Of a stretch of 57,120 nt of DNA, positions 8,301-31,372 are shown piece by piece (the stretch's first letter is position 1; each line of letters opens with the position of its first letter). The notes below the pieces were generated by a model that was not told where the DNA came from, ran no database searches, and was given only the letters and a program-made list of their open reading frames with translations. The stretch is from a virus. Taxonomy: Duplodnaviria; Caudoviricetes. Location: IMG/VR virus record IMGVR_UViG_3300028145_000159, positions 1 through 57,120 of that record; one strand, written 5' to 3'. The position numbers and the translations under genes are program-made.

Positions 8301-8813
8301 CTACACGGCAATAAAGAGTTGGGGCAGTCGCCTCAACCCCTGCCATTCCGCCTGCCACCAACTGACAATCTCCTCACGATACGGTTGCAGCACGGGGCGT
8401 TCGTCGCGACCGTAGGGGTCCGAGGCGTCCAGGATGGCCTGCGGTGTCGCCTCGTAGACGATATCCCGGTAGAGCCGCCCCTGATCGCACCAGAGCAGGT
8501 GGAGCCGCTCGCCACGATCAAAATGCAGCCGGCCGCTTGGGGTGAGATACTCGGGTTTCTCGCGGTCGTTCGCGTCCCACCAGTAATGGACATGCCCCCA
8601 CGGCGTCCCGCGCAGGTGGAGCGGGGACGGGTCTTCCTCGTCCCACCAGCCGTTGGCGGCGTCCTCGATCAGGGTCCACCAGGAAAACAGGGGTCGCAGG
8701 GGGAGCTGGCGAAACATACCCATCGTCACTTGTTTCTTCCCGACTTTGAGCACCTGAATCTCTACCTGCACCGTTTGGACCGTTGCTTCTTTCATCATCA
8801 ATGGTGACGGCAT
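8301..8813 (-). CDS. Hypothetical protein
   Basis: VQVEIQVLKVGKKQVTMGMFRQLP...PWGHVHY...LPQLFIAV; AAGGAG RBS. Confidence 0.75.
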   Translation of the reverse strand: MPSPLMMKEATVQTVQVEIQVLKVGKKQVTMGMFRQLPLRPLFSWWTLIEDAANGWWDEEDPSPLHLRGTPWGHVHYWWDANDREKPEYLTPSGRLHFDRGERLHLLWCDQGRLYRDIVYEATPQAILDASDPYGRDERPVLQPYREEIVSWWQAEWQGLRRLPQLFIAV

Positions 8814-9018
8814 CCGGGCTCCTTCGTGCGTGCGTGCCGTTCTGCTGGGTGTGCCTGGCAGACATGCGGTGCCCCGAGCAGACAGGAGCGGCTCGGGGTA
8901 TGCGGTTCGTACCAGCCCGCCTGTCCCGTGGTCCCGTGGTGCCAGGTGTGCACCAACACACATTGCCCGCACGCCGGGCAGGGCAGGAGGCAGGGCTGGG
9001 GCGGCACGTGCTCAGGTA

Positions 9019-9681
9019 TTAGAATGCCCCCACATGTTGCGGCACGGTATATCCTGCCGTCTGGAGCCAAGCCGTAACCCCGATGACGGCTTGCGTCAGT
9101 TCACTGGCATCCTTTTTCACAATCTTCAACATGACGGGGTAGCCTTGCGGAGAGACCGCTTCAATGCTGGCTTCATACGGATTAGACAGCACGGCAAGGC
9201 CGCCGTCATGCAGTTTTAGCAAGGCATCACTCATCTGATAGCTCGCGTGATCATTTTGCGCTGCCACGCTTTCCAACCGGCTCTTGCAGGCGGCATAGGT
9301 CACGTCCAGAACCCGCTCCATGTTCTTATGGTGATCCAGAATCCAATGACTGAGCCGCTCTTGCAAGGCCGTACAGAAGCCCTGCAGGAGGGCCTCATGC
9401 TGGAGCACCAGCGGCGGGAGAGGGGCGGGCGCCGGGGGCTGTGCGGTGGGGGCTGCCGTACAGACAGGGCAATCCCTGGGGTCTTGCGGGGCTGTCAGGG
9501 TGGGATAGGGGCATCGATCCCCGCAGAGTATTTGCCCATGGCATCTTGCACAGGCATGGTAATGGGTCATGGCCTCCGGTGGCACGGGGGGGTCAAGAAT
9601 ATCGGGCGTGCCGTCGTCATAGGGCGGCACGGGGGGAGGGAGAGGCTGTTGTTCTGGTTGTTTGGCAGTCATGTCAGGCAT
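9019..9681 (-). CDS. Hypothetical protein with CxxC...CxxC motif
   Basis: 220-aa ORF, GGAG RBS. Confidence 0.7.
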   Translation of the reverse strand: MPDMTAKQPEQQPLPPPVPPYDDGTPDILDPPVPPEAMTHYHACARCHGQILCGDRCPYPTLTAPQDPRDCPVCTAAPTAQPPAPAPLPPLVLQHEALLQGFCTALQERLSHWILDHHKNMERVLDVTYAACKSRLESVAAQNDHASYQMSDALLKLHDGGLAVLSNPYEASIEAVSPQGYPVMLKIVKKDASELTQAVIGVTAWLQTAGYTVPQHVGAF

Positions 9682-26373: not shown

Positions 26374-27831
26374 ATGCCTCTCACGCGGCCACTCAGTGCC
26401 CCCTACAAAACAGCCTTGCAGACGTATATCCAACTCCGGGAACATTGGCGCGATAGTCCACGACTCTATGTGCGCCAACGGTTTGGCATCGAACCCACCT
26501 GGCAGCAAGCCAAGATTCTTGATGCGATTGCGCCACCTGGCGCCAAAGTGACGGTGAGAGCTGGCCATGGGATCGGGAAGTCCGGGGCGGCGTCATGGTG
26601 TATCTATTGGTTCATGGAGACCCACGACTTTGCCCGTGTCCCCTGTACTGCGCCCTCCGCCCATCAGCTCCGCGATATTCTCTGGGGCGAACTCGCGAAA
26701 TGGAAACGCCACGCGGACGAACTCAGCCAGCAACGCGGGGATCATCCTCGCTTGTGGCTGTCGCGGCTCTTCAAGCTGACCACGGATAGCCTCTATGATC
26801 CGCAGGCCCGTGACTGGGCCGCACTTGCCCGGACGGCACGGAAAGAGAACCCGGATGCCCTGCAGGGGCAGCATGCGACCCATATTCTGTACGTGATGGA
26901 CGAAGCGCCCGGCATCCCTGAGCCGATCTTTGAGACGGCAGAAGGGGCCCTCTCGACGCCGGATGCCCGGTCGCTCATGCTGGGAAACCCGACGCGGACA
27001 AGCGGCACGTTTCATGCCTCACATCACCAGAGCCGTGCTGATTATACCTCGCTGCATTTTCGCTCCCAGGATTCGCCACTGGTGGCGCCAGGCTACCGGG
27101 AACGCCTCGTCAGAAAATGGGGGGAAGGCTCCAACGTCGTGCGGGTGCGGGCCGATGGCGAATTCCCCAAACAAGAAGACGATGTGCTGATCTCGCTGGA
27201 GCTGACGGAGCCCTGCTTAACACGAGAGCGTGTCGCGGGGGAAGGCAAGCGGCGCTTGGGCGTCGATGTGGCGCGCATGGGGAGTGATCGTACAGCATTG
27301 GTGTTGCGGCATGGGCGCCTAGTGGAGCACATCAAAGTCTACGCCAAGCAAGATACCATGGTGACCGTGGGCTGTATCGTCGCGGTGCTCGAAGTCTGGC
27401 GGGTCGAAGAGATTGACGTCGATGTCATTGGTCTGGGCGCGGGGGTCTATGATCGGCTGGCGGAGTTGCGACGCCAGGGCGGAATTACGTGTGATGTCGT
27501 CGCCGTGAACGTCGCCCAGAAAGCGCCAGTGCCTAAGCCAGGCGAGCCCAAGCCGCGCTTGCTTCGGGACTATTTGTGGCTAGAGTTAGCCCGATGGTTA
27601 CGCGATGAGGCCCCCGTGTTTTGCGCTGAGGACCCGATAGCCTGCGAGGATTTGGCTGGGGAGCTGGCCAGCGTGAAGTATGGGCTGGATAGTGAAGGGC
27701 ATATCGTGGTTGAGGACAAGGACGGCATGAAAAAGCGGCTGAGGCATAGTCCAGACTTGGCCGATGGGCTCGGGTGTACGTTTGCGCCACCCATGGGCAG
27801 CCCCATGCAGACCCGGAAGTTCCGCGTATGA
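26374..27831 (+). CDS. terL: Terminase large subunit
   Basis: Walker A GHGIGKS, Walker B YVMDEA, GNP motif, nuclease GVDVARMGSD and SPDLAD. Confidence 0.96.
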   Translation: MPLTRPLSAPYKTALQTYIQLREHWRDSPRLYVRQRFGIEPTWQQAKILDAIAPPGAKVTVRAGHGIGKSGAASWCIYWFMETHDFARVPCTAPSAHQLRDILWGELAKWKRHADELSQQRGDHPRLWLSRLFKLTTDSLYDPQARDWAALARTARKENPDALQGQHATHILYVMDEAPGIPEPIFETAEGALSTPDARSLMLGNPTRTSGTFHASHHQSRADYTSLHFRSQDSPLVAPGYRERLVRKWGEGSNVVRVRADGEFPKQEDDVLISLELTEPCLTRERVAGEGKRRLGVDVARMGSDRTALVLRHGRLVEHIKVYAKQDTMVTVGCIVAVLEVWRVEEIDVDVIGLGAGVYDRLAELRRQGGITCDVVAVNVAQKAPVPKPGEPKPRLLRDYLWLELARWLRDEAPVFCAEDPIACEDLAGELASVKYGLDSEGHIVVEDKDGMKKRLRHSPDLADGLGCTFAPPMGSPMQTRKFRV

Positions 27832-28031
27832 GTCTCCCCATCGCCGCTGACCTCTGGCAGCAGCTCTGCCAGGTGCAAGCGCAGTTCCCCAGTTGTGTCG
27901 TGACCCTGTATAAGCATGGGGGCGTGATCGGGAAGGCCGAGGTGCTGCTGACGCTGAAAGCGGGGCAACCATTGCAGGAGTGTCCTGCCGTGTGTCAGAG
28001 AGAAGGGCGCGAGGTATGGCACGAACACTAA
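27828..28031 (+). CDS. Hypothetical protein
   Basis: ATGA overlap with terL. Confidence 0.55.
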   Translation: MSLPIAADLWQQLCQVQAQFPSCVVTLYKHGGVIGKAEVLLTLKAGQPLQECPAVCQREGREVWHEH

Positions 28032-28957
28032 AGACGCCTAGTGTGCTCGATCTCCGCTTCCAGTCGTTTGGCCAGTACCTGGTCTTGGGCAAGGGGAAGA
28101 AGACGAAGCATGGACAATTCTGGGTCTGCCAGTGCGCCTGTAATCAGCAGGCGGAGATCCATGAGGCGGCATTGCTAGAGGGCAGAGCGAAGAGTTGCGG
28201 GTGTGATTATGTCAATAGTCGTGGGCAATACAGAGGGCCGGGATACTATCGAGACTTAACAGGACAACAATACGGAAATATGCTTGTCCTGCAACGTATG
28301 GTAGGAAAGCATCTCAAAAAAACCTGGTGGCAATGCCAGTGTACCTGTGGTCAGGAAGCAGCCATCTTGAGGAGTAATTTACTGTCTGGAAATTCTCGGC
28401 AATGCAAACGATGCGCTTATTCCAACTTGTCCAACATTGTTACTCAACGTTGGTATGGGGCATGGTTTGTGCTAGAGCGTGGACAGTCAACACCGCATGG
28501 AGCGGCGCAATATTTATGTCGTTGTGGCCGTTGCGGGCGTGAGATTTTGGTTGCGTCGGAATCTCTCAGAACTAGGACATCGCAAAGCTGTGGCTGTCCT
28601 GGAAAAGGACAAAGAAGAAAAACATCTTTGCTTTATCATACTTTTGGGCGTTTATATGTTATTGAAAAAACAGAAAAAAATAAACATGGGCAAACATGTT
28701 ATTTGTGCCAGTGCGTTTGTAAAGCAAAAACTCTCAAAATTGTTCCCGCCTGTAAATTACTTTCAGGGAAAACGCAAAGTTGTGGTTGTCTTGCAAGAGA
28801 GAAAGCAGCCGAAAATATGAGGCAATATCATCTTGCAAAGGCCAACCATGCTCGCCTTGATTGGACGCTCGATATCCTACGGCGCCATGGCGCCATGCCG
28901 CCAGAGGACCGTGCGCCGCAGTCGCTTGACAAAAATGGTGCATGCGTCCACACTTAG
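28016..28957 (+). CDS. Protein of four tandem CxC.CG...SCGC zinc-ribbon repeats (homing-endonuclease-associated); no nuclease domain visible
   Basis: DLTGQ.YG.L.V...W.C.C.CG...L.SG...SCGC x4; AT-rich. Confidence 0.85.
   Translation: MARTLKTPSVLDLRFQSFGQYLVLGKGKKTKHGQFWVCQCACNQQAEIHEAALLEGRAKSCGCDYVNSRGQYRGPGYYRDLTGQQYGNMLVLQRMVGKHLKKTWWQCQCTCGQEAAILRSNLLSGNSRQCKRCAYSNLSNIVTQRWYGAWFVLERGQSTPHGAAQYLCRCGRCGREILVASESLRTRTSQSCGCPGKGQRRKTSLLYHTFGRLYVIEKTEKNKHGQTCYLCQCVCKAKTLKIVPACKLLSGKTQSCGCLAREKAAENMRQYHLAKANHARLDWTLDILRRHGAMPPEDRAPQSLDKNGACVHT
28926..28954 (+). promoter_or_regulatory. Putative sigma-70 promoter
   Basis: TTGACA-17-CACACT. Confidence 0.55.
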
Positions 28958-29025
28958 CGTAGGCCAGTTGTCTCTTTCCCCAGATTGCCACTCCGCGTGA
29001 GTGAGCCCAGGCCACCGGACACCCC

Positions 29026-29065
29026 GAGCCTCATTGCTGGATTGCCCAGCGATGGGGCTTTTTTT
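29026..29065 (+). terminator. Intrinsic terminator
   Basis: AGCCTCATTGCTGG-loop-CCAGCGATGGGGCT followed by a T-tract. Confidence 0.8.
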
Positions 29066-29081
29066 GTGTGTGGAGGCACGC

Positions 29082-29279
29082 ATGGCCCGCAAGAAGGTCT
29101 CGATGAACGTGGGCACGACCGCCCGCAAGGCCCGCAACAAGGCGGCCGATGCGTTGAAGGCGCAGGGCGATTCCCCCGAGAAAGCCTTTGCCATCGCCAC
29201 AACCATTGTGAAAAATGCGTCTGCGGCTGGTCGGAAGCGCTTGGCGAAGCGCGGCCTGAAAAAAGCCAAGAAAGGGTAA
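29082..29279 (+). CDS. Small basic (Lys/Arg/Ala-rich) protein
   Basis: GGAGG RBS; 65 aa. Confidence 0.75.
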   Translation: MARKKVSMNVGTTARKARNKAADALKAQGDSPEKAFAIATTIVKNASAAGRKRLAKRGLKKAKKG

Positions 29280-29606
29280 CGCCGTGACATCCTCCGCCAG
29301 CTAAGGCAGGCGGCTTCGAACATCGAAACCGGAGTAAGAGTCTCCGGCGGTTACGGTTACCAGCTCTCTGATGAGCCGAGAGGTTTCCCCGTTTCTGAGC
29401 GCTGTCACGGCGCTCTAGCCAGTCGAGATATACCCGACTGGCCGCGTGGACGTTCCACGCATTGCTCTCATTCGTCGGTTCAACTTTTACCCAGAGCCCT
29501 TTGCTCTGGAACCCGGCGAAGCTGAAATCTCAAAGAGCCGCATCCTTGACGAGCGGTGTACGGCGCTGGACACCAGCTATTCCTGACCGCTCAGGACCGT
29601 AGTGAA
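29265..29606 (-). ncRNA. Putative TnpB omega-RNA (reRNA) with 3' guide from the flank
   Basis: Extended -10 TGcTACACT at about 29610-29618; at least 8 hairpins; ends in the RE hairpin plus TCAC. Confidence 0.7.
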
Positions 29607-29763
29607 GAGAGTGTAGCATATTAGTTCACTCTAGAACAGTAAACAAAGTCTAAACAGACTGTCTACAACATTGAACAAAGTCTGCATAGGGATACAAGGC
29701 TGGTGCTGCGCACCCCTCAATTCCCCTGTCAGCTCAAGCAGACAGTACCCTTGAGGGTTTCTT
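29284..29763 (-). mobile_element. Non-autonomous IS200/IS605-family element (no tnpA/tnpB)
   Basis: LE: CCAT target, GGTA guide, hairpin CTGTC..GACAG; RE: GAAG guide, hairpin CCGCC..GGCGG, terminal TCAC; removal restores RBS-ATG. Confidence 0.88.
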
Positions 29764-29934
29764 ATGGCGACGACGACCCAGACTTCTCTGCCTGTCCGTG
29801 TTTCCCTGCCGGCGATGGCCATGCCTATGCCGATGGGCCCCACGACGGCGAGTCCCCAGACGATGGCGGAGCATGCCCGGCTGATGGCGGATGCCCACCA
29901 ACGGGCGATGCAGAACGGACGGAGGCAGGACTAG
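29764..29934 (+). CDS. Small Met/Pro-rich protein (56 aa)
   Basis: ATG coincides with the IS target; TAG just before the portal start. Confidence 0.6.
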   Translation: MATTTQTSLPVRVSLPAMAMPMPMGPTTASPQTMAEHARLMADAHQRAMQNGRRQD

Positions 29935-29938
29935 CGCT

Positions 29939-31372
29939 ATGGCCGTGGCTCCGCACTTTCCCCACCCCGACTATACTCTCATGGCGCCCACCTGGCGCAA
30001 GCTGCGGGATGTGTACGCGGGGCGGGAAGCCTTGCTCCGGGGCACCACGCGCTATCTGCCACAGCCGACCAACATGGATGATGAGCGCTACCAGGGCTAT
30101 CTCACCCGCCCCAAGTGGTTTGGGGCGACCAGGCGCACGGTGCAAGCCTTTGAGGGCCTGGCCTTCCGGCAGCCGCTCAGTGTGGCCGCGCCGCCCAAGG
30201 TGGAAGCACAGCTTGAAACGCTGACGTCTACGGGCGTGTCCCTTCAGTCTCTGGCCCGCCTCATCTTCCGGGAAACACTCTTGATGGGCCGCTACGGCGT
30301 GCTGGTGGATATGGACAGTATTGGGCAACGCCCCTTTTGGGCCGGCTATCCGGCAGAGCAGATCACCAACTGGACGGTGGGGATTGTGGAGGGGAGACGG
30401 CAACTACTCCATGTGGAGTTAGTCGAGTGTGATTACGTGCTCGGCGCCGATGGGCATACGCAAGAGCCGCTGGAGACGATCCGCACGCTGCAACTGATAG
30501 ACGGTATCTATACACAAACGGTCGAACTGGTGACCAGTGCCGGCACACGCCAGCAGATCACCCAGGTCGTCCCCCAGCGGCAGGGCGGACCGCTCACTTT
30601 TCTCCCCTTTGTCTTCTTTGGCGTGAACGATCTGGAGTCGCAGGTCGAACTGTCCCCGATCAATGACCTGGCTGATACCAACCTGTCCTACTGGCGGCAT
30701 AGTGCGGACTATGAATGGTCCCTGCATCTCACGGCCAGCCCCACGCCCTGGGTGACCGGCCATGATCCGAGCCTGGACCTTGGGCCGGATGGGCAGCCGC
30801 TGGCCGAGCTGGTGTTAGGCAGCGACATGGCCATTTTTCTGAAGGAAGCCGATGCCAAAATCGGTATGCTGGAGTTCCAGGGGCATGGGCTGGAGCCGCT
30901 CCGGCAAGCCATGCTCGATGATAAGGCGGAAATGGCCAGCTTAGGGGCCCGCCTCTTGGAGGGCCAGCCCGAGACGAATGAGACCCTGGGCGCCTTTCGC
31001 ATGCGGCAAGCCGGGGATACGAGTGTTATTGCCGCGCTCGCACAGGCGTTGAGCGCGGGCCTGACCCGGCTGCTCAGGATGCACGCTTTCTGGTTTGGCG
31101 CGGCGCAGACGGCGGAAGATACGCGGGTCCGGTGCAGCTTGCCGACGAACTTTGTGACCGTGAAGCTGGAGCCGCAGATGTTGACGGCGCTGTTGGCGGG
31201 CGTGCAGAGTGGGCATATCAGCCAGGAAACGTTCTATTGGAACATGCAACAGGGAGACATGGCCGAACCGGGCGTGGACTGGGAAGAAGAGATGGCAAGA
31301 ATAGAAAGTGCTACTCCTGCCATGGCCCGGCTCGTTACTCCGACAGCAGGAGGGCTCAATGGCACAGGATAA
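29939..31372 (+). CDS. Portal protein (DUF4055 type)
   Basis: HPDY...W....D.Y.G...YLP...Y..YL.R; GRYGVLVD; LPFVF.G; N.SYWR.SADYE. Confidence 0.92.
   Translation: MAVAPHFPHPDYTLMAPTWRKLRDVYAGREALLRGTTRYLPQPTNMDDERYQGYLTRPKWFGATRRTVQAFEGLAFRQPLSVAAPPKVEAQLETLTSTGVSLQSLARLIFRETLLMGRYGVLVDMDSIGQRPFWAGYPAEQITNWTVGIVEGRRQLLHVELVECDYVLGADGHTQEPLETIRTLQLIDGIYTQTVELVTSAGTRQQITQVVPQRQGGPLTFLPFVFFGVNDLESQVELSPINDLADTNLSYWRHSADYEWSLHLTASPTPWVTGHDPSLDLGPDGQPLAELVLGSDMAIFLKEADAKIGMLEFQGHGLEPLRQAMLDDKAEMASLGARLLEGQPETNETLGAFRMRQAGDTSVIAALAQALSAGLTRLLRMHAFWFGAAQTAEDTRVRCSLPTNFVTVKLEPQMLTALLAGVQSGHISQETFYWNMQQGDMAEPGVDWEEEMARIESATPAMARLVTPTAGGLNGTG

What the first reader, a model, noticed from the sequence alone, without database searches (positions are those of the whole stretch)
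29265..29770. Protein-free IS200/IS605 element carrying only a promoter and a large omega-RNA-like transcript aimed at its empty site
Seen (minus strand): target CCAT, then the left end with guide tetranucleotide GGTA before hairpin CTGTC-TGC-TTGA-GCT-GACAG; right end GAAG plus hairpin CCGCC..GGCGG plus GGATG-TCAC. Both guide/cleavage pairs (GGTA/CCAT, GAAG/TCAC) obey the IS608 pairing rule (AAAG/TTAC, GAAT/TCAA). There is no tnpA or tnpB ORF in 480 bp. An extended -10 (TGcTACACT) precedes about 320 nt of near-continuous hairpins (TCCTGA/TCAGGA, GCTGG/CCAGC, CCAGAGC/GCTCTGG, GCGTGGA/TCCACGC, GCCAGTCG/CGACTGGC, GAGCGC/GCGCTC, CTCTC/GAGAG, CCGGAG/CTCCGG). The predicted guide is the flank GGCGTTACCCTTTCTTGG, which in the empty allele directly follows CCAT. 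Inference: an RNA-only selfish element that borrows host TnpA/TnpB to move and to cut element-free sibling phages, or a domesticated phage guide/decoy RNA.
Basis: partly seen in the sequence, partly recalled or inferred. Interest (0 to 1): 0.85.

Follow-up and report, generated by a model that had tools for sequence, protein, structure and literature searches.

The report
Protein-free transposon carrying a guide-RNA gene
A 480-base mobile element with no genes of its own sits between two phage genes and carries only transposon ends plus a conserved structured RNA that resembles the guide RNAs of TnpB nucleases, a kind of element already described in bacteria and archaea but here found in phage genomes.

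Summary
Window 29284-29763 (minus strand) is a discrete 480-bp insertion. All 3 sibling phage contigs that span the site lack it, and one has exactly the predicted empty junction. There is no target duplication. It lies 3' of CCAT and ends in TCAC, with IS608-style subterminal hairpins. It holds no tnpA, tnpB or tnpB remnant.

Full-length relatives in a phage-like metagenome contig (L012) and in L013/L014, the same locus on two viral records, also start after CCAT. Compensatory changes occur at 14 of 43 and 11 of 49 pairs.

A covariance model of the last 141 nt, built only from these protein-free copies, gave its best hit at the tnpB 3' end plus right end in 5 of 5 tnpB-bearing loci. It predicts the omega-RNA pseudoknot.

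So this is a non-autonomous IS200/IS605 element (PATE) with a TnpB-type guide-RNA scaffold and a conserved 5' RNA domain of unknown role. Transcription, the trans-acting TnpA/TnpB and homing between phages are not shown. PATEs encoding omega RNAs are already published, so this is a new, phage-borne member of a known kind.

The parts
29764..29767 (-). Target tetranucleotide CCAT (the presumed TnpA target and TnpB TAM). On the + strand it is ATGG, which includes the ATG of ORF 29764-29934.
   Evidence: CCAT also precedes the left end in L012 and L013, so 3 of 3 independent loci have it.
29284..29763 (-). The whole 480-bp non-autonomous IS200/IS605-type element (PATE).
   Evidence: It is absent from 3 of 3 sibling contigs that span the site. 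Similarity to L012 and L013 stops at these ends. Other contigs lose similarity exactly at 29284 (table 7).
29746..29763 (-). Left-end linker of 18 nt, ending in the guide tetranucleotide GGTA (29749-29746). Its reverse complement gives GAGGG 7-8 nt before the displaced ATG.
   Evidence: L013 also has GGTA; L012 has GGGA.
29726..29745 (-). Left-end subterminal hairpin: CTGTC / T / GCT-TG-AGC / T / GACAG.
   Evidence: It has the same build as the right-end hairpin (5-bp foot, T.T mismatch, GC-rich tip). The hairpin is kept in L012 and replaced by a different hairpin in L013.
29610..29618 (-). -10-like box TGcTACACT. The putative transcription start is near 29603.
   Evidence: TATACT in L012 and TACACT in L013 sit at the same distance from the RNA. 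It was not called by the consensus scan, and no RNA data exist.
29459..29603 (-). Conserved 5' RNA domain of unknown role: a long helix enclosing GCTGG/CCAGC, then a second sub-domain with the CCAGAGC/GCTCTGG hairpin and GTAAAAGTTGAACCGACGAATGAG.
   Evidence: 11 of 49 pairs have changes on both sides, with 0 of 500 shuffles reaching that. The second sub-domain recurs at the start of a second RNA in L013. There is no Rfam match.
29284..29424 (-). 3' RNA domain, a TnpB omega-RNA-like scaffold: stem 1, a two-level stem, two hairpins, the right-end hairpin and a 10-nt tail.
   Evidence: Model R1 scores 153.4 bits here. The same model gave its best hit at the tnpB 3' end in 5 of 5 tnpB loci. HgcC scores 31.3 bits. 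14 of 43 pairs have changes on both sides, 0 of 500 shuffles.
29397..29415 (-). Stem 1 (GAGCGC/GCGCTC). Its loop GUGACA (29408-29403) can pair with the 3' terminal UGUCAC (29289-29284) to form the predicted pseudoknot.
   Evidence: helix 2: 94.4% of cells paired, one G-C to G-U change. The analogous pseudoknot in ISDra2 omega RNA is described in PMC10097598.
29284..29317 (-). Right end: GAAG (29317-29314), hairpin (29313-29294), and the tail AGGATGTCAC ending in TCAC.
   Evidence: 4 of 7 hairpin pairs have compensatory changes (helix 7). The terminal GGAGGATGTCAC is identical to the right end after insQ/tnpB in Escherichia phage RCS47.
29264..29283 (-). Predicted guide (flank GGCGTTACCCTTTCTTGGCT), antisense to the last codons of ORF 29079-29279.
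   Evidence: Position only. The same 22 nt follow CCAT in the empty site of L002. No RNA evidence.
29079..29279 (+). Upstream flanking small basic ORF (stop TAA at 29277-29279). It is not part of the element.
   Evidence: No family match.
29764..29934 (+). Downstream flanking 56-aa ORF, followed by the portal gene (29939-31372). It is not part of the element.

Best explanation
Window 29284-29763 (minus strand) is a non-autonomous IS200/IS605-family element, a PATE.

**What is shown**
- It entered a phage genome 3' of CCAT without a target duplication, in the gap between a stop codon and the next ATG.
- It encodes no protein.
- Between the two IS608-style ends it carries a -10-like box and a ~320-nt RNA gene with two domains.
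- The 3' domain (about 141 nt, ending exactly at the transposon boundary) has the build of a TnpB omega RNA: stem 1 whose loop can pair with the last six nucleotides (pseudoknot), internal stems, and a terminal hairpin that is also the right-end hairpin.
- The 5' domain (about 145 nt) is even better conserved and has no known counterpart.

**What is inferred**
- A Y1 transposase (TnpA) supplied in trans by the unknown host moves the element as single-stranded DNA.
- Transcription from the internal promoter runs across the right end. The RNA would then carry the flank as a guide.
- With a host TnpB this RNA would direct cutting of CCAT-flanked empty sites, such as the one in sibling L002. Repair from an element-bearing genome would then copy the element in.
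For: **Insertion polymorphism.** 3 of 3 sibling contigs that span the site lack the 480 bp, and L002 has the exact predicted junction.

**Ends.** The geometry is 18 nt plus hairpin on the left and hairpin plus 10 nt on the right.

**Family.**
- L012 is 76% identical over 491 aligned columns.
- L013/L014 share the 5' block at 88% over 123 nt and the 3' domain.
- All copies begin after CCAT and end in GATGTCA(C/T).
- Short contigs in two other metagenome runs lose similarity exactly at 29284, with differing flanks (tables 7 and 8).

**RNA-level selection.**
- 14 of 43 and 11 of 49 pairs changed on both sides; 0 of 500 shuffles reach this; slid controls give 0-2.
- 21 G.U pairs against 2 A.C pairs favour the minus strand as the sense strand.

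**Link to TnpB.**
- R1 was built only from the protein-free copies. With filters off over 26 kb, its best hit in each of 5 of 5 tnpB-bearing loci was the tnpB 3' end plus right end (17.7-27.8 bits, E 3e-7 to 3e-4).
- A sixth locus, a deletion derivative of such an element, scored 16.2 bits. The next best hits had E > 0.2.
- The right-end hairpin of L013 is 31 of 33 identical to the sequence just after tnpB in a tnpA+tnpB element on a Komagataeibacter plasmid.
- Sub-threshold HgcC hits occur in all copies: 31.3, 37.4 and 40.8 bits. HgcC shares the right-end tetraloop with tnpB-overlapping RNAs (PMC4615843, passages read).

**Pseudoknot.** It matches the ISDra2 arrangement (PMC10097598). The loops of L022, L025 and L027 are complementary to their own 3' termini (read by eye).
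Against: - No RNA evidence exists for this locus. The promoter lacks a -35 box and was not called by the scan.
- No TnpA or TnpB is known for the host. None is in this record, nor in the complete record that holds L014.
- No close autonomous parent was found. Exact-pattern scans of genome contigs gave 0 hits twice, and blastn against phages and plasmids gave no match for the window element.
- The R1 scores on real tnpB loci are modest (18-28 bits), and part of them comes from the DNA-level right-end hairpin.
- HgcC stays below Rfam's cut-off of 50.
- The 5' domain is unexplained by the omega-RNA model.
- Covariation rests on only three independent sequences.
- The stem-1 loop of L026 is not obviously complementary to its own 3' end.
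Confidence: 0.7

Rival explanations
1. The element is a PATE, but its RNA no longer serves TnpB. It has been taken over by the phage or by the element itself. Possible roles are an antisense regulator of the late operon, a decoy that soaks up host TnpB or TnpA, or a device that aims host TnpB at competing phages without homing. The conserved 5' domain would be the working part.
For: - The 5' domain is better conserved than the omega-like scaffold and has no counterpart in tnpB loci.
- Every full copy fetched lies in a viral or phage-like contig.
- In the window and in L013 the RNA is antisense to the flanking genes.
- An overexpressed PATE-derived RNA altered growth in Halobacterium, and a TnpA-competitor role was proposed (PMC4615843).
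Against: - The omega-like scaffold, the pseudoknot partners and the exact 3' boundary are still kept, with compensatory changes. That is what a working guide RNA needs.
- The element is polymorphic among siblings, as expected for a selfish insertion and not for a fixed phage function.
Confidence: 0.17
2. The element is a decaying relic. It moves, or once moved, through its ends only, and the RNA-like structure is a leftover of the parent element with no present function.
For: Deletion derivatives that keep the tnpB 3' end and right end arise readily. L023 is one, with tnpA and tnpB fragments.
Against: - Unlike L023, these copies hold no tnp fragments.
- At 76% identity the helices are kept by changes on both sides at 25 of 92 pairs.
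- The G.U/A.C asymmetry points to selection on an RNA.
Confidence: 0.07
3. It is not a transposon. It is an RNA gene (moron) gained by ordinary recombination, or a self-splicing or IStron-like intron.
For: The site lies in a variable stretch between terminase and portal that also holds a low-GC HNH-like ORF.
Against: - The boundaries are exact at CCAT| and TCAC|, with IS608-like hairpin geometry, at three unrelated loci.
- The right end matches tnpA+tnpB elements.
- No group I or group II intron match appears, even at E 10.
- The element is antisense to the interrupted transcription unit, so splicing would not help.
Confidence: 0.03

Closest known systems
PATEs (palindrome-associated transposable elements): protein-free IS200/IS605 derivatives. 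Examples are those of haloarchaea, including the transcribed VNG_R0052, and the PATE-like elements of Geobacillus stearothermophilus said to 'often encode omega RNAs' used in trans.
   Same: [quoted passage not shown] It carries a right-end-proximal RNA (PMC4615843; PMC10055086; passages read, supplements not seen).
   Different: - It is 480 bp with an internal -10-like box and an extra conserved ~145-nt 5' RNA domain.
- It has no tnp remnants.
- All full copies found are in viral or phage-like contigs.
- Presence/absence polymorphism among sibling phages is documented.
Autonomous or tnpB-only IS605-family elements. Examples: the tnpA+tnpB element on a Komagataeibacter saccharivorans plasmid (L022), the insQ element of Escherichia phage RCS47 (L026), and the tnpA+tnpB element of Saccharomonospora phage PIS 136 (L027).
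   Same: The right-end hairpin and tail are shared: L013 versus L022 is 31 of 33 identical, and the window and L026 share the last 12 nt. The stem 1 / internal stem / terminal hairpin order is detected by R1.
   Different: In those elements the region upstream of stem 1 is tnpB coding sequence. Here it is a non-coding conserved RNA domain plus a promoter-like box. Similarity outside the right end is weak (18-28 bits).
ISDra2 TnpB omega RNA (cryo-EM structure, PMC10097598)
   Same: The scaffold is about 116-140 nt and ends at the transposon boundary. A pseudoknot forms between the last nucleotides before the guide and the loop region of stem 1. The last hairpin carries a UUUA-type tetraloop about 20 nt from the end (compared).
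   Different: No sequence similarity was tested. The TAM would be CCAT and not TTGAT. No protein partner is known.
Rfam HgcC (RF00062)
   Same: It gives full-length, sub-threshold matches to the 3' domain in all copies. They share the terminal hairpin, the GAGGAnGUCA tail and loop/tail complementarity.
   Different: Scores of 31-41 bits are below the cut-off of 50. HgcC is an archaeal family whose function was described as unknown in the papers read.
Free-standing homing endonuclease genes of phages (intronless homing)
   Same: If the inferred mechanism is right, the outcome is the same: an element-free sibling genome is cut during co-infection and repaired from the element-bearing genome (concept in PMC13565253).
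   Different: The nuclease would be borrowed from the host and aimed by an RNA. The element itself encodes no protein. Nothing of this was shown here.

Membership tests
IS200/IS605 family element (non-autonomous, PATE) | Insertion 3' of a fixed tetra- or pentanucleotide with no target-site duplication. | tested here: met
   The filled and empty sites were compared. CCAT precedes the left end in 3 of 3 independent loci.
IS200/IS605 family element (non-autonomous, PATE) | Asymmetric ends with subterminal imperfect hairpins and no terminal inverted repeats. The cleavage sites lie about 19 nt 5' of the left hairpin and about 10 nt 3' of the right hairpin (the IS608 values are recalled, not from a call). 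| tested here: met
   The spacing is 18 nt (19 in L012) and 10 nt. Both hairpins share one build.
   On the left, GGTA/CCAT gives 4 of 4 in the window and in L013, and GGGA/CCAT gives 3 of 4 in L012. On the right, GAAG/TCAC follows the IS608 GAAT/TCAA pattern, with the fourth pair changed on both sides.
IS200/IS605 family element (non-autonomous, PATE) | Right end shared with elements that encode TnpA and/or TnpB. | tested here: met
IS200/IS605 family element (non-autonomous, PATE) | No transposase of its own (this defines a PATE), with mobilisation by a trans Y1 TnpA. | tested here: inconclusive
   Absence of tnpA and tnpB is shown. The trans TnpA and the host are unknown.
TnpB omega RNA (reRNA) | The RNA scaffold ends at the right transposon boundary, and the guide is read from the flank. 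| tested here: inconclusive
   The scaffold model ends exactly at 29284. No transcript data exist, and contigs of one RNA run touch only 29467-29542.
TnpB omega RNA (reRNA) | Structural likeness to the RNA encoded at the 3' end of tnpB genes. | tested here: met
   The R1 best hit in 5 of 5 tnpB loci is the tnpB 3' end plus right end (E 3e-7 to 3e-4). The next best hits have E > 0.2. The scores are modest.
TnpB omega RNA (reRNA) | Pseudoknot between the nucleotides just before the guide and an upstream loop. | tested here: met
   Six predicted pairs are kept in 3 of 3 copies, with one G-C to G-U change and one mismatch. The arrangement is as in ISDra2. This is a prediction only.
TnpB omega RNA (reRNA) | A cognate TnpB protein, and RNA-guided cleavage next to the TAM. 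| not testable with these tools
   No TnpB is in the record or in the two related viral records. The host is unknown.
Rfam HgcC (RF00062) | Score at or above the curated gathering threshold (50 bits). | tested here: not met
   31.3 bits in the window, 37.4 in L012, 40.8 in L013/L014.

The most novel reading that the evidence does not exclude
This is a phage-borne, RNA-only gene drive. The 480-bp element uses a host TnpA to jump and a host TnpB, loaded with its own promoter-driven guide RNA, to cut element-free sibling phages during co-infection and copy itself in.

Its left end supplies a Shine-Dalgarno-like motif, so insertion right at an ATG stays harmless. The conserved 5' RNA domain is a new accessory module, for example for stability, processing or TnpB capture, and it is shared with a second RNA type nested in L013.

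One hint: in run X3 the element pieces are identical to the window (0 differences in 377 nt) while the flanking pieces differ by about 7% (44 of 633, table 8). However, no contig bridges a boundary by 31 nt.
Probability: 0.25. Interest if true: 0.8.

Novelty: new member of a known kind. Interest (0 to 1): 0.5.

Why it matters
This is a clean natural case in which the guide-RNA half of a TnpB system travels without the nuclease. The filled and empty alleles are both in hand, and the predicted 22-nt target with its CCAT motif is present in a sibling phage. That makes the proposed modularity (trans TnpA, trans TnpB) directly testable in a phage setting.

It raises the question of whether phages compete through borrowed RNA-guided nucleases. 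It also defines a small RNA family, including a conserved 5' domain of unknown function, that current RNA libraries do not hold.

If the RNA proves inert, this is simply one more miniature IS200/IS605 derivative.

Tried and rejected
**Pattern scans that gave only chance matches.** Right-end patterns in viral-contig hit inside coding regions (L006, L007; L008-L011; checked).

**Searches that found nothing.**
- blastn of the window element against phages and plasmids: no match.
- blastn of the L013 element against phages: no match.
- Two genome-contig scans: 0 hits. Exact patterns miss diverged copies, so this is a weak negative.
- The one metagenome scan gave only L012.
- The three later viral scans re-found only L013/L014, and one search found none.
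- The cyanophages nearest by portal protein (Pan1, Mwe-JY26) have no TnpB and no credible R1 hit (best E 0.05).

**Ideas discarded.**
- tnpB remnant in the element: none.
- The long-range pairing in the single-sequence fold between GGCUCUUUGAG and the 3' domain is not kept in L013.
- The TCCTGA/TCAGGA hairpin is not conserved.

**PHROG and Pfam scans of neighbours.** For L012 and L013 they gave little: an SU10 adaptor and a beta-helix in L012 only.

**Sequencing runs.**
Their shares alone are no evidence.
- In the laid runs, bins without cover mean nothing.
- The RNA run X20 touches only 29467-29542, with unlike sequence on both sides. It shows at most that a relative of the 5' sub-domain occurs in an RNA library.
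- X3 records 5 and 7 cross the boundaries by only 11 nt, below the 31-nt rule, so linkage of the identical element to the diverged flanks is not proven.

**Literature.** Searches and the passages read turned up no description of a phage-borne omega-RNA-only PATE. Supplements were not seen and may hold such cases.

Full report
**Setting.** The window is a whole 57,120-bp virus record. Runs labelled soil metagenome hold the stretch in full, and two of them may be its source. Around the finding all genes run on the + strand:

| Coordinates | Feature |
|---|---|
| 25849-26370 | small terminase-like ORF |
| 26374-27831 | large terminase |
| 27980-28957 | low-GC HNH-like ORF |
| 29026-29060 | terminator-like hairpin |
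| 29079-29279 | 66-aa basic ORF |
| 29280-29763 | gap |
| 29764-29934 | 56-aa ORF |
| 29939-31372 | portal |

**Observation.**
- CCAT at 29767-29764.
- An 18-nt linker ending in GGTA.
- A hairpin at 29745-29726.
- At the other end, GAAG, a hairpin at 29313-29294, and a 10-nt tail ending in TCAC at 29284.

The two hairpins differ in sequence but share one build: a 5-bp foot, a T.T mismatch and a short GC tip.

A portal-protein search in viral contigs returned 4 sibling contigs with 93-96% amino-acid identity. Three of them span the site. In all three the flanks align at 86-90% but window 29289-29769 is missing.

The insertion is therefore 29284-29763, 480 bp, with no target duplication and unambiguous boundaries. 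L003 and L004 differ at the junction and lack the ATGG/CCAT.

**No protein.** Pfam models for TnpB (PF07282) and the Y1 transposase (PF01797) find nothing in the record. All six frames of the element are full of stops. tblastn with five TnpB proteins finds nothing better than E 0.65.

**Relatives.** Direct similarity searches mostly failed. Laying contigs of four runs on the stretch helped. Contigs of a soil run and an aquatic run match parts of the element at 80-100%. In the aquatic run three contigs lose similarity exactly at 29284, with unlike flanks. This pointed to conserved blocks.

A 24-mer from one block found L012, on a 138-kb metagenome contig.
- It holds a 478-bp element (8566-9043), 76% identical over 491 aligned columns.
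- It is preceded by CCAT and ends in GGAGGATGTCAC.
- Its neighbours include an SU10-type adaptor and a beta-helix protein, so it is phage-like.

Another block found L013 and L014, the same locus on two viral records.
- There a 960-nt element (L013 9330-8371) again starts after CCAT, with GGTA before the left hairpin, and ends in GAGGATGTCAT.
- It has the same 5' and 3' RNA domains.
- The two domains are separated by a ~500-nt insert with a second copy of the promoter region, a second RNA, and right-end-like hairpins.
- The record holding L014 is rated 100% complete and has no tnpA or tnpB.

In the window and in L013 the element lies between a stop codon and the next ATG and is antisense to both genes.

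**RNA structure.** RNAalifold on three independent sequences predicts seven helices in each domain. Counting gives:

| Domain | Cells paired | Pairs changed on both sides | Shuffles reaching this | Slid controls |
|---|---|---|---|---|
| 3' domain | 93.8% | 14 of 43 | 0 of 500 | 0-2 |
| 5' domain | 93.8% | 11 of 49 | 0 of 500 | 0-2 |

G.U pairs outnumber A.C pairs 21 to 2 on the minus strand, so the minus strand is the sense strand. The structure was derived on that strand, which biases the total but not the asymmetry. Three sequences are few, and related sequences can beat shuffles, so this is good but not final evidence.

**Link to TnpB guide RNAs.** Rfam finds nothing at gathering score. 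HgcC (RF00062) matches the last ~150 nt end to end in every copy: 31.3, 37.4 and 40.8 bits against a cut-off of 50. The paper that described RNAs overlapping the 3' end of tnpB notes the same right-end tetraloop in HgcC and in a transcribed PATE (PMC4615843, passages).

I built model R1 from the three protein-free copies only. A 33-nt blastn match of the L013 right end led to a Komagataeibacter plasmid. There it lies directly after a tnpB gene that sits beside tnpA. With that TnpB I fetched four phage loci with tnpB.

R1 was run with filters off over these six loci (26 kb). In each of the 5 tnpB-bearing loci its best hit was the tnpB 3' end plus right end, at 17.7-27.8 bits and E 3e-7 to 3e-4. 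The sixth locus, L023, is an internal-deletion derivative with tnpA and tnpB fragments and scored 16.2 bits. All other hits had E > 0.2. The insQ element of phage RCS47 ends in the same 12 nt as the window element.

The loop of stem 1 (GUGACA) is complementary to the last six nucleotides (UGUCAC) in all copies. This mirrors the pseudoknot seen in the ISDra2 complex (PMC10097598). By eye, L022, L025 and L027 keep loop/terminus complementarity with different letters, while L026 does not obviously do so.

**What stays open.**
- The 5' domain (29603-29459) has the longest invariant blocks and a covarying hairpin, but no Rfam or tnpB counterpart.
- Its second half recurs at the start of the second RNA in L013, so it is a module of some kind.
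- The promoter is only a conserved -10-like box.
- No RNA data bear on this locus.
- No host, TnpA or TnpB is known.

**Mechanism.** The structural facts fit the published model in which TnpA moves such elements and TnpB, guided by the right-end RNA, cuts the empty site so that recombination restores the element. They also fit the statement that PATEs often encode omega RNAs used in trans (PMC10055086).

For a phage, the empty site is a sibling genome in a co-infected cell. L002 carries CCAT followed by 22 nt identical to the window's flank. Run X3 gives a hint of recent spread. Its element pieces show 0 differences in 377 nt, and its flank pieces show 44 in 633. No contig bridges a boundary by 31 nt.

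**Verdict.** The identity as a PATE with a TnpB-type guide-RNA scaffold is well supported. The function is inferred. The kind is already described, so this is a new, phage-borne member with an unexplained extra RNA domain.

Noticed in passing
window 27980-28957 (variable part 28210-28918): An HNH-endonuclease-like ORF (PHROG 374, E 2.7e-39) with GC down to 0.29 lies between the terminase and the small basic ORF. Siblings L002 and L004 align on both sides but carry different, shorter sequence in between. The sibling in run X3 diverges before 28948. It looks like a free-standing homing-endonuclease island next to the transposon site.
   Followed up: partly
L013 about 9045-8545 (minus); the same locus in L014: A ~500-nt insert splits the 5' and 3' RNA domains of the L013 element. 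It carries a second copy of the promoter region, a second ~430-nt RNA whose start resembles the second half of the 5' domain, and two copies of a right-end-like hairpin (CCCCTGGCTTTAGCCATGGGG). The second hairpin copy is followed by AGGTTCAAAG. The UUGAAC of that RNA is complementary to its own GUUCAA tail. It is probably a nested second PATE of a related type.
   Followed up: partly
window 29746-29763; L013 9313-9330: Read on the strand of the displaced gene, the left-end linker places GAGGG (window) or AAGGGA (L013) 7-8 nt before the ATG that is part of the CCAT target. The insertion may therefore replace the lost ribosome-binding site. L012 has GAAGGA but no long ORF at that ATG.
   Followed up: partly
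L023 2539-3036 (Acetobacter persici plasmid): This is a ~500-bp internal-deletion derivative of the L022-type tnpA+tnpB element. It keeps the left end, a tnpA fragment, two tnpB fragments (aa 101-158 and 373-406) and the whole right-end RNA region. It is an example of how miniature derivatives that retain the guide-RNA region arise.
   Followed up: yes
L022 2923-2965: The RNA region at the 3' end of a genuine IS605-type tnpB gives a sub-threshold RAGATH-18 match (30 bits, cut-off 44.9) and a weaker HgcC match (18.5 bits) than the protein-free elements do.
   Followed up: no
window 29467-29542: Two contigs of a soil metatranscriptome run (X20) match this part of the 5' domain (49 nt with 2 differences; 66 nt with 12) and continue unlike on both sides. 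A relative of this RNA module may therefore be present in RNA libraries. Neither strand nor expression can be told from contigs.
   Followed up: no
window 29026-29060 (+): A strong terminator-like hairpin with a T run lies between the HNH-like ORF and the small basic ORF. It was the only terminator-like site called in 28800-30100.
   Followed up: no
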